Positions 29,196 to 33,709 of a DNA stretch of 64,000 nt are shown piece after piece. Made by a program: the position numbers and the translations under genes. The stretch is from the human T2T-CHM13v2.0 reference genome, Homo sapiens, in the NCBI RefSeq assembly GCF_009914755.1, contig NC_060935.1; one strand, 5' to 3'. The notes below the pieces were generated by a model that did no database searches, was not told the origin of the DNA, and saw only the letters and a list, made by a program, of their open reading frames with translations. Numbering within the stretch: the stretch's first letter is position 1; each line of letters opens with the position of its first letter.

Positions 29196-29463
29196 TTTTG
29201 ATCATCATTCCAGACCCTAGGGGACCTCAACTGGGTGTCTTGCCCCCTAGGCTCCGGAAGGGGACCTCCCGTGGATCTCAGGAAGCCCTCTGGTGCTCAG
29301 AGGCTCCTGGGAAAGTCCCTAGCCATGATACCACATGCTCAGAAGCCCCACCTTCACAGACGCTGGCCCCAGATGTAGCTGCCTTCCTGTGTCACAGACT
29401 CTCGATTCCATGGACACAGTCCTCATGGGCTCCCTCCAGCACTGCTGTTGCCTGCTGCCTAAG

Positions 29464-30124
29464 ATGGGTGACACTTGGGCCCAGCTTCCCTGGCCCGGGC
29501 CACCCCACCCAGCAATGCTGCTGATCTCCCTCCTCTTGGCAGCCGGGTTGATGCACTCGGATGCCGGCACCAGCTGCCCCGTCCTTTGCACATGCCGTAA
29601 CCAGGTGGTGGATTGTAGCAGCCAGCGGCTATTCTCCGTGCCCCCAGACCTGCCAATGGACACCCGAAACCTCAGCCTGGCCCACAACCGCATCACAGCA
29701 GTGCCGCCTGGCTACCTCACATGCTACATGGAGCTCCAGGTGCTGGATTTGCACAACAACTCCTTAATGGAGCTGCCCCGGGGCCTCTTCCTCCATGCCA
29801 AGCGCTTGGCACACTTGGACCTGAGCTACAACAATTTCAGCCATGTGCCAGCCGACATGTTCCAGGAGGCCCATGGGCTAGTCCACATCGACCTGAGCCA
29901 CAACCCCTGGCTGCGGAGGGTGCATCCCCAGGCCTTTCAGGGCCTCATGCAGCTCCGAGACCTGGACCTCAGTTATGGGGGCCTGGCCTTCCTCAGCCTG
30001 GAGGCTCTTGAGGGCCTACCGGGGCTGGTGACCCTGCAGATCGGTGGCAATCCCTGGGTGTGTGGCTGCACCATGGAACCCCTGCTGAAGTGGCTGCGAA
30101 ACCGGATCCAGCGCTGTACAGCAG
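29464..30124 (+). CDS. LRRC55: LRRC55 coding exon 1 (signal peptide, LRRNT, LRR repeats, start of LRRCT)
   Basis: ORF 29335..30210 encodes [44 protein letters not shown], then LxxLxLxxN repeats and GNPWVCGC. The ATG at 29464 has strong Kozak context (aagATGg). Donor GCAG|gtaata at 30124/30125 is phase 1. In-frame upstream ATGs at 29335, 29410 and 29425 would give longer N-termini (341 aa from 29335). Confidence 0.97.
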
Positions 30125-30794
30125 GTAATAGAGGGGCAGAACGGGGCAGTCAACAGGGAGGGCTTGCCTCAATGGGAAGCAAAGGCTCCAAAGAAAGCGG
30201 GGGAACTTAGAGCCAGAAAGCACCTACTGCGTTTTCTAATGTGGGCTTGCCTCTTTGTACACCAGCTCGGCCAACAGGTTGTTTGTAGAATCCTTCCAGT
30301 GCATGTGAGGCACCGAGGGCCCATTCATTCATTAAATAGATGTCCCTCACCACTGCGCTGCTCATGACCTAATGAGGCAGACGGATAGTAGACAAGTGAG
30401 AATAGCCTATGGTTGGTGGTTTTTATTGAGCTTTCACCATGACCTAAGATCTTGGCATCCATTATCTCATGAGACCCCCATTTTTATTATACCCATTTTC
30501 CAGGTGAAGAAACTGAGATTTAGAACAATAAAAAGGCTTGACAGGAATCACACACTTAGAAAGTGGCAGGGCCATGAAAAAAATACAAATTAAAAAATTA
30601 AAAAGTGGCAGGACCATGAATAAAACCTAGATTTATCTGACTTCTAAGCCCTGTTCTAATCTACCAGAATGCTTTTTTAGCATTCCAAGTGTTGGAAACT
30701 CTCGTATAAATAGTAATGACTAACACAATCTCAACAGAGCTGCAATAGCTTAAGTTGCGTGACAGCCAATATGTTCCAGGAGGAACTTGAGACC

Positions 30795-30990
30795 TTAGTA
30801 CTTGCTATTTACCAGGCCCTCTCTTAAGCAGCTTTACCTATCTCTTCCTATCCCCAGAAGAACACTAATGAGATTGCCACTCTACAGAGGAGGAAGCTGA
30901 GGCACAGAGAGGTTCAGTAGCTTGTTGGAAGTTACACAGCTGCTAAGTGTTGAAGCCAGGATTTGAGTCCTGGCAATCTCCCTGACTATA
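30795..30990 (-). mobile_element. MIR SINE immediately upstream of the intronic LRR copy
   Basis: acagaggaggaagctgaggcacagagaggtt...ccaggatttgagtcc. Confidence 0.75.
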
Positions 30991-31066
30991 TCCTGAAGAG
31001 TCAGGTTCTGGCCTGCCGGAAGAGTCAGAACCTGAGTCCTGGACTGGCCAAAGGGCTGCAGTAGAG

Positions 31067-31141
31067 TTCCAGGACCTCATGCAGCTCCAAGACCTGGATC
31101 TCAGCTACGAGAACCTGGCTTTCCTCAAACTCAAGGCCCTG
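31067..31141 (+). other. intronic diverged duplicate of an LRRC55 LRR-coding segment (candidate cassette exon or pseudo-exon)
   Basis: 59/75 nt identical to 29935-30009 with no indels. Translates FQDLMQLQDLDLSYENLAFLKLKAL versus [25 protein letters not shown]. Confidence 0.9.
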
Positions 31142-32604
31142 AGCAGTGTAAACTTTGGGCACAGGGTAGGGAGCTGAAAGGAAGACTGAGATGCGGCAAC
31201 TCAACCAGCCAATCCCAACTGGAGGGTGGACTGGGGCCTGAAGAAGCCCAAATCACATAGGTTTGATGGGCATCCCAACCCAGTGGCATCTGAGCCTGAC
31301 CCAGAGGCAGGCAATGTTCAGCTGTGGCCCTAGCCACCAGCTCTCCTGTGTGACAACACCAAGACTTGGCACAAGAACCCAGAAGTAGTAGCTGAAGGCC
31401 CTATCCAAGGGGCTTTCCCAGAACCTGAGCTCAGCCCATGTTGAGAAGAAGCAATGCTGAATGTGGTAAAAGGGAGAGGAGGACTGAGTGGGGAGCCCAA
31501 GACCAAAATAGTTTGGGGAGGGCTGTGGGTCACGATTCCAGTGTTTCCACAGAGCTGTAGGAGGAAATTCTCTTGCATCAAAATAGCTGGGGACTGGGAT
31601 GGGGCGATGGTGGAGGGCAGGAGTGGGAGGATGCCTGGAGCAATCTCTCAACTTGCTCAAACTTGGCAGGCGCGCCTTCCCTCTCTCTAATAACAGAAAG
31701 GGCACCCAAAGCACTAAGCTTCCATTACACCCAGGGACTCCTTTTCTGTGATCTCTGAGGTCCCTGCTGCTCTGAAGAAGCTCAGACTCCCAGCGAGCAG
31801 GAGAGGGGTCCAAGATTTCATCAGTGTAGGCTCACACATACATCAGTACAGGTGAGGAACCTGAGCTCCAGAAGGGGACAGTGACTGTCCACAGGCCCAT
31901 GATGAGGAAGCAAGCAGTCCCAGCTGGAAAGCCAGGTTCCCTGTTCCTCCACAGAACACACTTAACACCAGGCCACACGCACCAGGGTGCTTCTCCTTAG
32001 GGACAAAACCTTGCCAGTGGAGGCAGAACTAGGTGATGCTCTTCCCTTTAGGTCCTTTTCAGCTGCTTCCTCCCTTTTTCTTTGCGGAACTCCACTGTTA
32101 TCCATGGTTTTTGGAAAAATTGAACAAAGAGGGCCATAATAAGCAAGCCCCTGGGATACAGCATGACTTTAGGACTGGTGCCTTGACTTACCAGGGGGTT
32201 TTGTCAGCCTCCACGTTCCCACCCTGCATCCTGTGTGGTCCCACCAAGGGCTGTCAGGGGCTCCTCTGGCTGGTCCATATGAGGGTTGCCACATTCCCCA
32301 TCTCACTGTCTCACCAGTACCCACTTCATCTACCTAATAGACTTTAGAGTTCAGCATCTTCAGGTTTCCAGAGGAGAGCTCACGCGAGTCAAGCCCAGAG
32401 AGGATCCTGGCCTGGGCAGGACGGGGGTCCTGTGCTCACAGCCTACAGGAATTGCTCAACCTGGGATTTGGGGAAGGTTGTGTTCTCCTTCCAAACCTGA
32501 CTCCCCATTTCCAAGGATATTGATGCTGATTCAATTCTTGAAAGGTTCAATCCAAATCCATCATTTGATTCCTTGCCCTCAAAAACTGCAGAATGAATAC
32601 ATAG

Positions 32605-33005
<401 letters not shown>

Positions 33006-33709
33006 TGGGTTATCCCCTTCTTATAGAGGCCCCTTATTATACAGGCAGAGCATGAGAGCCAGAAAGACCAAAAAAAAAGACTTACCCAAGGTAAGAGCTT
33101 GATTAATATTTATCCACTAAACAAAGGAATGATTGGCTGCTCAAAAGCTGGTGCCTAAAGCTGCATGGCAAGAGTGTCACATGCACACTACCTTTACTTC
33201 CCAGGCAGAGTGAGATAAGACCGTTGACAGCCATCATGCATTCATAAAAGTGACCCCAGAAGAATGAGATGAGACCATCAATGCTGAAAATAACAATAAC
33301 CCCACCAGAAAAAGCAGCCCCCTCCTACAGAAGCTTGAGTGCAGAATATGACCCCCAATGGCCTCTCTAGGAAAAACAACCAATATAATAATTCATATAA
33401 TTGAAATATAATATATGTTATATATTATATATTACATTAATATGTAGCATATAATTCGTGTACGTTAACTCACTGAATCCTCACTACAACCCTGAGAAGT
33501 AGATACTGTTATTATCCTCATTTGACAGATGAAGAAGTCAAGACACAGAGAGATTAAATATCTTACCTGTAATCATGCAACTAGCAAGGGGTGAAGAGGG
33601 GATTTGAAACTAGGCCAATAGCTCTGGAACCCATACTCTTAACTCTATACCCTGTGTATCTGGAAATGCAACATAAGTAGTGGAAAGGCCCAGTGATTTG
33701 GAGTTGGAC

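What the first reader, a model, noticed from the sequence alone, without database searches (positions are those of the whole stretch)
31062..31177. Hidden intronic duplicate of one LRRC55 leucine-rich repeat that looks like a cassette exon
Seen: 31067-31141 aligns without gaps to exon-1 nt 29935-30009, with 59/75 nt and 19/25 aa identical (FQDLMQLQDLDLSYENLAFLKLKAL vs [25 protein letters not shown]). Of the 16 differences, 8 are synonymous third-position changes. All Leu/Phe/Met core positions are kept and there is no stop. It is preceded by a tandem CAG-TAG acceptor (31061, 31064); both are in frame with the phase-1 exon-1 donor, giving ...CTA-(V)E-FQDLM. It is followed by AGG|GTAGGG at 31165/31166. 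The frame is under 60 codons, so the ORF track misses it. Inference: this is either a constrained alternative exon adding an LRR or a decaying relic of an intragenic duplication. Caveats: the acceptor has no pyrimidine tract, and some synonymous changes may have arisen in the functional exon rather than the copy.
Basis: partly seen in the sequence, partly recalled or inferred. Interest (0 to 1): 0.8.

Follow-up and report, generated by a model that had tools for sequence, protein, structure and literature searches.

The report
Decayed intronic copy of LRRC55 exon
A short stretch inside the LRRC55 intron is a real but very old, decaying copy of part of the gene's first exon, later split by a jumping element, and nothing found here suggests it is used as an exon.

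Summary
Window 31067-31141 matches exon-1 29935-30009 without gaps at 59/75 nt and 19/25 aa. In the whole 3.1-Gb assembly its only match is that exon.

It is half of a larger relic. A second collinear block, 30724-30783, matches exon 29810-29869 at 42/60 nt (E 2.6e-5). The two offsets differ by 218 nt, and a dispersed SINE-like repeat of at least 199 nt (30796-30994) lies between the blocks. So about 199 nt of exon 1 was copied into intron 1 and later split by a transposon.

The relic is as diverged as that repeat: 101/135 against 91/117, p 0.66.

The cassette-exon reading fails several tests:
- The proposed exon is 104 or 101 nt, so it frameshifts exon 2 and removes the transmembrane segment.
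- It would sit inside the LRRCT cap.
- Its acceptor has 6/17 pyrimidines, against 11-15/17 at annotated acceptors.
- Intron 1 holds 355 pseudo-exons with sites as good.
- RefSeq lists one transcript.

Cross-species conservation and RNA-seq junctions could not be tested. Low interest.

The parts
29810..29869 (+). Parental block A in LRRC55 exon 1 (encodes ..[19 protein letters not shown]..)
   Evidence: blastn of exon 1 against intron 1: 29810-29869 matches 30724-30783 at 70% over 60 nt, E 2.6e-5. Offset 914 is one of only three offsets that pass the 21/30 scan.
29935..30009 (+). Parental block B in LRRC55 exon 1 (the fifth [28 protein letters not shown])
30724..30783 (+). Intronic copy, block A. 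It is more decayed: 42/60 nt, and in the parental frame it reads QSQQSCNSLSCVTANMFQEE, with the LDL core lost.
30796..30994 (.). Dispersed SINE-like repeat inserted between the two copy blocks. The label MIR is my recall of its core sequence, not a tool result.
   Evidence: In one search, 38 of the 40 scored genome matches (85 candidates) fall on window 30862-30979. In one search, 20 of 20 fetched copies match, with a union of extents of 30796-30994. In one search the core 30866-30985 is 91/117 identical to the majority consensus of those copies. The difference between the two offsets (1132 - 914 = 218 nt) fits its size.
31067..31141 (+).
31059..31064 (+). The upstream tract has only 6/17 pyrimidines.
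   Evidence: This is the 24th-34th percentile of 408 intronic AGs; the six annotated acceptors in the window have 11-15/17.
31163..31171 (+). AGG|GTAGGG donor-like site. It matches 6/9 of the consensus. Using it makes the exon 104 or 101 nt long, which shifts the frame.
30986..31177 (+). Stop-to-stop open frame of 63 codons that contains block B. It is bounded by TGA on both sides.
   Evidence: Its Pfam LRR_8 score is only 12.9 bits against a cut-off of 27.

Best explanation
The segment is the better-preserved half of an ancient, non-functional partial duplicate of LRRC55 exon 1.

Proposed history:
1. About 199 nt of exon 1 (29810-30008, running from the fourth into the fifth LRR) was copied in the same orientation into intron 1, about 0.7 kb downstream of the exon. 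The copy carried none of the exon's splice sites.
2. A SINE-like element (MIR by recall) then inserted into the middle of the copy and pushed the two ends 218 nt further apart.
3. The copy has since drifted at roughly the neutral rate towards the base composition of the intron, while the parental exon stayed under strong protein-level constraint.

This history explains why only the exon-derived pieces are still recognisable, and why about half of the differences in block B look synonymous.

The open frame and the AG and GT nearby are most likely coincidental, and the segment is not a working cassette exon.

Shown here: the homology, its uniqueness in the genome, the second block, the interposed repeat, equal divergence, the frameshift and the weak acceptor. 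Inferred: a single duplication event, the order of events, an age of roughly 100 My or more, and non-use in splicing.
For: 1. The homology is real and exclusive. E is 4e-13 in the window, and the only DNA or protein matches in the 3.1-Gb assembly are the segment itself and exon 1.

2. There is a second collinear block on the same strand: 29810-29869 matches 30724-30783 at 42/60 nt, E 2.6e-5. In a scan of all offsets from 600 to 1500, only 1132 (56 windows), 914 (17) and 1351 (2) pass 21/30.

3. The two offsets differ by 218 nt. A dispersed repeat fills 30796-30994 between the blocks. Of 40 scored genome hits, 38 fall on it, and 20 of 20 fetched copies align to it.

4. Divergence equals the local neutral yardstick. 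The LRR blocks are 101/135 identical and the repeat core is 91/117 identical to its consensus (Fisher p 0.66). Block A and block B do not differ (p 0.32).

5. Composition has drifted from parent to copy: GC falls from 0.53-0.61 to 0.47-0.55, against 0.47 for the intron, and there are 20 GC>AT against 11 AT>GC differences.

6. The amino-acid differences look derived in the copy. D3, E15, N16 and K21 occur in none of the 19 aligned orthologues. E15, N16 and K21 are also absent from the 61 sequences; position 3 was fixed as G by that pattern and cannot be counted there. Q8 and K23 occur only in a few distant orthologues. The copy's Asn is one position off the LRR consensus Asn (LxxLxxLxLxxN).

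7. Block A has lost its coding sense (QSQQSCNSLSCV..) and lies in a different frame from block B.

8. Exon use is disfavoured:
- A 104 or 101-nt exon shifts the frame, giving a stop 93 nt into exon 2 and a protein of 285 or 284 aa without the transmembrane segment.
- The only frame-keeping donor (31145) matches 3/9 of the consensus.
- The acceptor has 6/17 pyrimidines, against 11-15/17 for all six annotated acceptors in the window.
- Intron 1 holds 355 AG...GT pseudo-exons with sites at least as good, 51 of them open in the phase-1 frame.
- The hub's RefSeq table lists one transcript with two exons.
- No database protein carries the segment apart from mechanical ORF calls of this same DNA.
Against: 1. 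In a simulation with a neutral copy and a constrained parent, conditioned on 15-17 differences (1699-1889 of 6000 runs kept per setting), block B looks somewhat more protein-like than expected. P(aa identity >= 19/25) is 0.11-0.16, P(no stop) is 0.46-0.73, P(all 11 core residues hydrophobic) is 0.11-0.14, and the joint probability is 0.018-0.024. This is nominal and post hoc, because the block was picked for looking this way. It is still not nothing.

2. The homology has sharp edges. The exon stretch between the blocks (29870-29934) and the highly conserved stretch after block B (30009-30124) have no detectable counterpart: 357, 784 and 1345 of 2000 shuffles reach the observed scores. A uniformly decaying single copy would be expected to keep more, so extra deletions or a breakpoint at 30008 must be assumed.

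3. The donor-like site is fairly good (6/9, 86th-95th percentile of 194 intronic GTs).

4. The yardstick consensus was built from copies chosen for similarity to the window's copy, so the repeat's divergence is probably underestimated.

5. Neither cross-species conservation nor RNA-seq junctions could be examined with the tools at hand.
Confidence: 0.85

Rival explanations
1. Block B is a rarely used alternative or cryptic exon of LRRC55.

With the AGG|GT donor it would produce a frameshifted protein of 284 or 285 aa. This carries the signal peptide, the LRR domain, half of the LRRCT cap, the extra LRR-like peptide and a 31-residue novel tail, but no membrane anchor. Because the stop lies in the last exon, the transcript would escape nonsense-mediated decay by the usual 50-55-nt rule (established knowledge).

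With the weak donor at 31145 it would insert 27 or 28 residues in frame.
For: - The frame is open for 63 codons.
- Both AGs are in frame with the phase-1 donor of exon 1.
- The donor matches 6/9 of the consensus, at the 86th-95th percentile.
- The joint coding-like retention has a nominal p of about 0.02.
- The homology edges are sharp and lie close to the AG.
Against: - The exon length is not a multiple of three, so the transmembrane segment is lost.
- The insertion point splits the LRRCT cap between the NPWVCGC part, encoded by exon 1, and the C..PPEV..C part, encoded by exon 2.
- The acceptor has 6/17 pyrimidines, in the bottom third of intronic AGs.
- Intron 1 holds 355 equally good pseudo-exons.
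- RefSeq has a single transcript (hub table).
- No predicted isoform in any species among the hits contains the segment.
- The two LRRC55 papers checked by term search mention no LRRC55 splice form.
Confidence: 0.06
2. The two blocks are not remnants of one 199-nt duplicate split by a transposon. They are two separate short patches of 60 and 75 nt, copied from the nearby exon during DNA repair (templated insertions) or refreshed by short gene-conversion tracts. They happen to lie on either side of a pre-existing repeat. They are still non-functional.
For: - The homology edges are sharp and the 65 nt between the blocks leave no trace.
- Block B is nominally better preserved than block A (79% against 70%).
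- The copy shares ATG (Met) with the human exon at a codon that is Val or Ala in nearly all other species.
Against: - The blocks share order, strand and spacing with the parent. The extra 218 nt is explained by the repeat of at least 199 nt.
- The identity difference between the blocks is not significant (p 0.32).
- A conversion recent enough to carry the human-lineage Met would leave far more than 79% identity. The nearest mismatches, 5 nt upstream and 8 nt downstream of that codon, limit any tract to 14 nt or less.
Confidence: 0.07
3. The copy is kept as a non-coding functional element. For example, it could be a duplicated piece of the exonic element that RefSeq lists as a silencer (29796-30090), which covers the parental 29810-30008 almost exactly.
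For: The parental segment coincides with the RefSeq silencer interval in the hub table. Block B is at the better-preserved end of the local range.
Against: - No functional element is annotated at the copy (hub table).
- The copy is as diverged as the neighbouring repeat.
- Block A is at 70% identity.
- The silencer interval is a screen fragment of about 295 nt, so the overlap may mean little.
Confidence: 0.02

Closest known systems
Unannotated intronic homologues of exons from intragenic (tandem) exon duplication, as catalogued by Ivanov & Pervouchine 2022 (PMC9013439; abstract and Results section read)
   Same: An annotated exon has a homologue inside an intron of its own gene. That study reports that about 2% of human exonic nucleotides have such intragenic homologues at 80% identity or more. 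The present pair sits at 79-80% over 74-75 nt.
   Different: Classic cases duplicate a whole exon with its splice sites and keep its length and phase, which allows mutually exclusive use. Here only an internal 199 nt of a 731-nt first exon was copied. The copy has no inherited splice sites, a transposon splits it, and the candidate exon breaks the frame. Whether this pair is in that study's Zenodo table could not be checked.
Intronic pseudo-exons (sequences with AG...GT flanks that are not spliced)
   Same: The segment has AG and GT flanks with an open frame but a poor polypyrimidine tract. It is one of 355 comparable AG...GT pairs in this intron, 51 of them open in frame.
   Different: Ordinary pseudo-exons have no homology to a coding exon. 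This one looks coding because it was copied from one.
Expansion of LRR arrays by internal repeat duplication (established knowledge of LRR protein evolution). The LRRC26/38/52/55 'Elron' cluster has LRRNT, 6 LRRs, LRRCT and a transmembrane segment (Dolan et al. 2007, PMC2235866; passages read).
   Same: The duplicated material is about one and a half to two LRR units of the array.
   Different: The copy landed outside the exon, downstream of the LRRCT-coding part, so it cannot extend the array. All orthologues retrieved keep the same repeat region without an insertion.

Membership tests
Cassette (alternative) coding exon of LRRC55 | Length keeps the downstream reading frame, or the shifted product is a plausible protein | tested here: not met
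   The exon would be 104 or 101 nt (mod 3 = 2). The stop falls 93 nt into exon 2, giving 285 or 284 aa without the transmembrane segment.
Cassette (alternative) coding exon of LRRC55 | Acceptor with a polypyrimidine tract, and a competent donor | tested here: not met
   The acceptor has 6/17 pyrimidines, against 11-15/17 in six annotated acceptors. The donor matches 6/9 of the consensus, which is acceptable. Only simple counts were used; MaxEntScan and SpliceAI were not available.
Cassette (alternative) coding exon of LRRC55 | Transcript evidence (junction reads, cDNA or an annotated isoform) | not testable with these tools
   The hub's RefSeq table has one transcript with two exons. No RNA-seq data were available. 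No database protein holds the segment except ORF calls of the same DNA.
Cassette (alternative) coding exon of LRRC55 | Frame and splice sites conserved across species | not testable with these tools
   No mammalian genome other than the window's own assembly could be searched.
Cassette (alternative) coding exon of LRRC55 | Insertion is compatible with the domain architecture | tested here: not met
   The exon 1/exon 2 junction lies within the LRRCT cap. NPWVCGC...RCTA comes before it, and the Pfam LRRCT match at P0006 residues 245-269 comes just after it. The whole ectodomain aligns as one stretch to solved LRRC26.
Tandem exon duplication / mutually exclusive exon pair | Whole exon duplicated with its splice sites, at similar length and the same phase | tested here: not met
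   Only 29810-30008 of exon 29394-30124 has a counterpart. The exon's 3' end and donor have none.
Neutral relic of an intragenic duplication | Significant homology to the parent, with no closer source elsewhere in the genome | tested here: met
Neutral relic of an intragenic duplication | Divergence comparable to neighbouring neutral DNA of similar or younger age | tested here: met
   101/135 against 91/117 for the inserted repeat compared with its consensus, p 0.66. The yardstick is biased towards low divergence.
Neutral relic of an intragenic duplication | No excess of coding-like preservation | tested here: inconclusive
   Block A has lost its coding sense. Block B has a joint nominal p of 0.018-0.024 in the simulation, and the single measures give p 0.11-0.73. 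The test is post hoc.
Leucine-rich repeat (Pfam LRR_8) | Score at or above the curated cut-off | tested here: not met
   The 63-aa frame scores 12.9 bits against a cut-off of 27, E 0.094. A single repeat cannot reach the cut-off.
MIR-type SINE (label for the interposed repeat) | Many dispersed old copies that share the core | tested here: met
   The genome search gave 85 candidates; 40 matches were scored, 38 of them dispersed copies at 75-95% identity. All 20 fetched copies align. The family name rests on my recall of the core sequence. No repeat library was available.

The most novel reading that the evidence does not exclude
Block B is kept by selection as a minor exon. Including it would switch LRRC55 from a membrane-anchored BK-channel gamma subunit to a secreted, anchor-less ectodomain that carries an extra LRR-like peptide. 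The nominal excess of coding-like preservation (joint p about 0.02), the open frame and the decent donor are the only hints. A second bold reading is that the human-lineage Val-to-Met change in the exon's fifth LRR was copied from the relic by a very short conversion tract.
Probability: 0.04. Interest if true: 0.45.

Novelty: new member of a known kind. Interest (0 to 1): 0.12.

Why it matters
The finding matters little beyond tidy annotation.

It is a clear small example of how an exon fragment copied into an intron can keep a coding look for a very long time. The parent is frozen by selection, so half of the differences appear synonymous although the copy itself is probably neutral. That is a useful caution for scans that take "open frame plus homology plus AG/GT" as a sign of a hidden exon.

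The transposon that splits the copy gives a relative date for the duplication. The copy could also serve as a neutral internal reference for substitution patterns in LRRC55.

If the minority reading were right, a secreted LRRC55 form would interest BK-channel physiology.

Tried and rejected
Chance: rejected on the E-values.

Origin from a paralogue or a processed pseudogene: rejected. DNA and protein searches of the whole assembly find only exon 1.

Membership in a dispersed repeat: rejected for block B. The dispersed hits cover only 30862-30979.

A full 914-nt tandem duplication: not supported. Nothing matches after 30008 or before 29810. The Smith-Waterman flank tests were reached by 357, 784, 1345 and 97 of 2000 shuffles. 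The last of these (29712-29747 against 30661-30696) is marginal and is not claimed.

A G>A mutational bias: seen in block B (7 of 16 differences) but it vanishes over both blocks (8 G>A against 6 C>T, p 0.79).

"The copy restores the LRR consensus Asn": rejected. Its Asn is one position off the consensus.

Orthologous copies or isoforms through the protein databases:
- The 'longer' search gave only P0077. Comparison shows it is this same DNA read with TGA as Trp.
- The 'shorter' search and the representative library gave only P0078, the 32-aa ATG-started frame of the same sequence. They also gave P0079, a 1053-aa protein with no matched stretch, which was not followed up.

Literature:
- No paper describing an LRRC55 splice isoform or an intragenic duplication was found with the terms LRRC55 + isoform (45 papers, 15 listed), LRRC55 + LRRC26 + LRRCT + exon (1 paper) or LRRC55 + exon duplication (1 paper, about KCNQ2).
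- Term searches inside two LRRC55 papers found none either.
- Supplements and the Zenodo tables of PMC9013439 were not seen and may list this pair.

Full report
**The observation**

Window 31067-31141 aligns without gaps to exon-1 29935-30009 at 59 of 75 nt and 19 of 25 residues. There are 16 nucleotide differences. Eight of the changed codons stay synonymous, there is no stop, and all 11 Leu/Phe/Met core positions are kept.

The match is far beyond chance. blastn gives E 4e-13 against the whole window and 6.5e-14 for exon 1 against intron 1. In the whole 3.1-Gb assembly that holds the window, a DNA search with 31040-31180 finds only the segment itself and exon 1 (E 2.8e-9). A protein search with the translated segment finds the same two places. 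The source is therefore LRRC55 exon 1 itself, not a paralogue, a retro-copy or a repeat family.

The CAG ending at 31061, the TAG ending at 31064 and AGG|GTAGGG at 31165/31166 are all there. Exon 1 ends in phase 1, and both AGs read on in frame. The stop-to-stop frame is 63 codons (30986-31177).

**The segment is half of a larger relic**

A sensitive comparison of exon 1 with intron 1 gives a second match on the same strand and in the same order. Exon 29810-29869 matches intron 30724-30783 at 42/60 nt, E 2.6e-5. tblastn had hinted at it.

In a scan of all offsets from 600 to 1500 nt, only three reach 21 matches in 30: 1132 (block B, 56 windows), 914 (block A, 17 windows) and 1351 (2 windows).

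In the exon the two blocks are 65 nt apart. In the intron they are 283 nt apart, an excess of 218 nt. That gap holds a dispersed repeat:
- A genome search with 30700-31500 gave 85 candidates, of which 40 were scored. Of these, 38 are dispersed copies covering window 30862-30979. The other two are the window itself and exon 1.
- I fetched 20 of the copies. All 20 align, and together they cover 30796-30994, which is 199 nt.
- Their majority consensus looks to me like the MIR SINE. That label is recall, because no repeat library was available.

The simplest history has three steps. About 199 nt of exon 1 (29810-30008) was copied into the intron. A SINE later landed inside the copy. Both have decayed since.

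**How decayed the copy is**

| Comparison | Identity |
|---|---|
| Block B against exon 1 | 59/75 |
| Block A against exon 1 | 42/60 |
| Both blocks together | 101/135 (74.8%) |
| Repeat core 30866-30985 against the consensus of the 20 copies | 91/117 (77.8%) |

Blocks A and B do not differ significantly (Fisher p 0.32). The LRR blocks and the repeat core do not differ either (p 0.66). The repeat must be younger than the copy it split, and its consensus was built from copies chosen for similarity. The relic therefore shows no sign of evolving more slowly than neutral DNA next to it.

The differences run towards the composition of the intron. There are 20 GC>AT against 11 AT>GC changes. GC falls from 0.53-0.61 in the parent to 0.47-0.55 in the copy, and the intron is at 0.47.

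From recalled rates, about 25% divergence and a MIR-type insertion point to an age of the order of 100 million years or more. This is inference.

**Which lineage changed**

I aligned 19 LRRC55 orthologues, from mammals to sharks, with the human exon and the copy. I then read the same columns in 61 database sequences that matched a pattern, out of 79 proteins held. Eight LRRC55-like sequences did not fit the pattern and were dropped.

- The copy's D3, E15, N16 and K21 are seen in none of the 19 aligned orthologues. E15, N16 and K21 are also absent from the 61 pattern-matched sequences; the pattern fixed position 3 as G, so it says nothing there.
- Its Q8 and K23 occur only in a few distant orthologues.
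- At these positions the tetrapod exon mostly keeps G, R, GG, S and E.

The replacements therefore arose in the copy while the parent was held fixed. That is what relaxed constraint looks like. It also explains why about half of the differences are synonymous: those can arise in either lineage.

The copy's Asn does not restore the LRR consensus. The consensus Asn of LxxLxxLxLxxN (Dolan et al. 2007, passages read) falls one residue earlier.

In the parental frame block A reads QSQQSCNSLSCVTANMFQEE where the exon reads [20 protein letters not shown]. The LDL core is gone. Block A also lies in a different frame from block B.

**A test that leans the other way**

I simulated a neutral copy and a parent that accepts only synonymous changes. 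I kept runs with 15-17 differences, which were 1699, 1700 and 1889 of 6000 under three mutation settings.

| Measure | Probability |
|---|---|
| Identity of 19/25 residues or more | 0.11-0.16 |
| No stop | 0.46-0.73 |
| All 11 core residues hydrophobic | 0.11-0.14 |
| All three together | 0.018-0.024 |

The joint figure is nominally unusual. The three criteria were chosen after seeing the segment, and the segment was reported because it looks like this. I treat the result as a weak hint, not as evidence of constraint.

The sharp edges of the homology are also not fully explained. The exon stretch between the blocks and the very conserved 30009-30124 have no detectable counterpart. Shuffles reached the observed scores 357, 784 and 1345 times in 2000. 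A region upstream of block A gave 97 in 2000, which is marginal. A breakpoint at 30008 and some loss around the SINE must be assumed.

**Could it be an exon?**

It shifts the frame, and translation stops 93 nt into exon 2. The product is 285 or 284 residues long and lacks the rest of the LRRCT cap, the transmembrane segment and the tail.
- Only a GT at 31146 keeps the frame, and it matches 3 of 9 consensus positions.
- The junction between exons 1 and 2 lies inside the LRRCT cap. NPWVCGC...RCTA is encoded by exon 1. The Pfam LRRCT match in a full-length orthologue (P0006 residues 245-269, E 0.015, below the cut-off) follows at once. The whole ectodomain through the membrane segment aligns as one stretch to solved LRRC26 chains 7ynz, 8s3e and 8vav. 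An LRR placed there would not extend the array; it would split the cap.
- The acceptor has 6 pyrimidines in 17, at the 24th-34th percentile of 408 AGs in the intron. The six annotated acceptors in the window have 11-15.
- The donor is decent, at 6/9 and the 86th-95th percentile of 194 GTs.
- Intron 1 holds 355 AG...GT pairs 50-250 nt apart with both sites at least as good. Of these, 51 are open in the phase-1 frame.
- The hub's RefSeq table has a single two-exon transcript.
- No protein in the databases carries the segment except mechanical ORF calls of the same DNA. P0077 is this stretch with its three TGA codons read as Trp. P0078 is the 32-residue frame from its ATG.
- The translated frame scores 12.9 bits on Pfam LRR_8, against a cut-off of 27.

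**What is known**

Intragenic exon homologues inside introns are a described class. Ivanov & Pervouchine 2022 (PMC9013439, abstract and Results read) report that about 2% of human exonic nucleotides have such homologues at 80% identity or more. They screened these for expression, but I could not see their tables.

My searches found no paper on an LRRC55 isoform or an internal duplication.

**Verdict**

The most likely status is a dead relic (confidence 0.85). A rarely used cryptic exon remains possible at a few per cent. Conservation across mammals and junction reads would settle it.

Noticed in passing
window 29947-29949 (exon 1) and 31079-31081 (copy): The Met in human FQGLM is unusual. Among 61 pattern-matched LRRC55 sequences only the human-type one has M; the others have A (35), V (14), P (5), S (4), T (1) and F (1), and a colobine monkey sequence has V. 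A lungfish sequence in alignment A1 also has M. The intronic relic carries ATG at the same codon. This could be a parallel G>A change or, less likely, a very short conversion from relic to exon.
   Followed up: partly
window 30953-31333 (P0077) and 31079-31177 (P0078): The protein databases hold 'proteins' that are mechanical ORF calls of this intronic DNA. One is 127 aa and reads three TGA codons as Trp. The other is 32 aa from the ATG and is found on 137 contigs. They are artefacts, not evidence of a gene.
   Followed up: yes
window 32725-32872, minus strand: There is an Rfam Metazoa_SRP match of 70.9 bits inside the masked repeat 32677-33009. It is most likely the 7SL-derived part of an Alu element (the Alu reading is recall).
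   Followed up: no
window 29796-30090 (RefSeq silencer, hub table) against 29810-30008: The duplicated part of exon 1 coincides almost exactly with an exonic interval that RefSeq lists as a silencer. The copy itself carries no such annotation.
   Followed up: no
window 30125-30340 and proteins P0001, P0009, P0014: The exon-1 frame stays open well into intron 1, giving an open frame of 293 aa. Predicted 'isoforms' in Octodon degus (X1) and Moschus berezovskii (X2) diverge right after ...RCTAG. That is what read-through into the intron, or an alternative 3' exon, would give.
   Followed up: partly
window 30661-30696 against 29712-29747: There is a weak collinear similarity upstream of block A, at offset about 949. 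It was reached by 97 of 2000 shuffles. It may be a further trace of the duplicate or it may be chance.
   Followed up: partly
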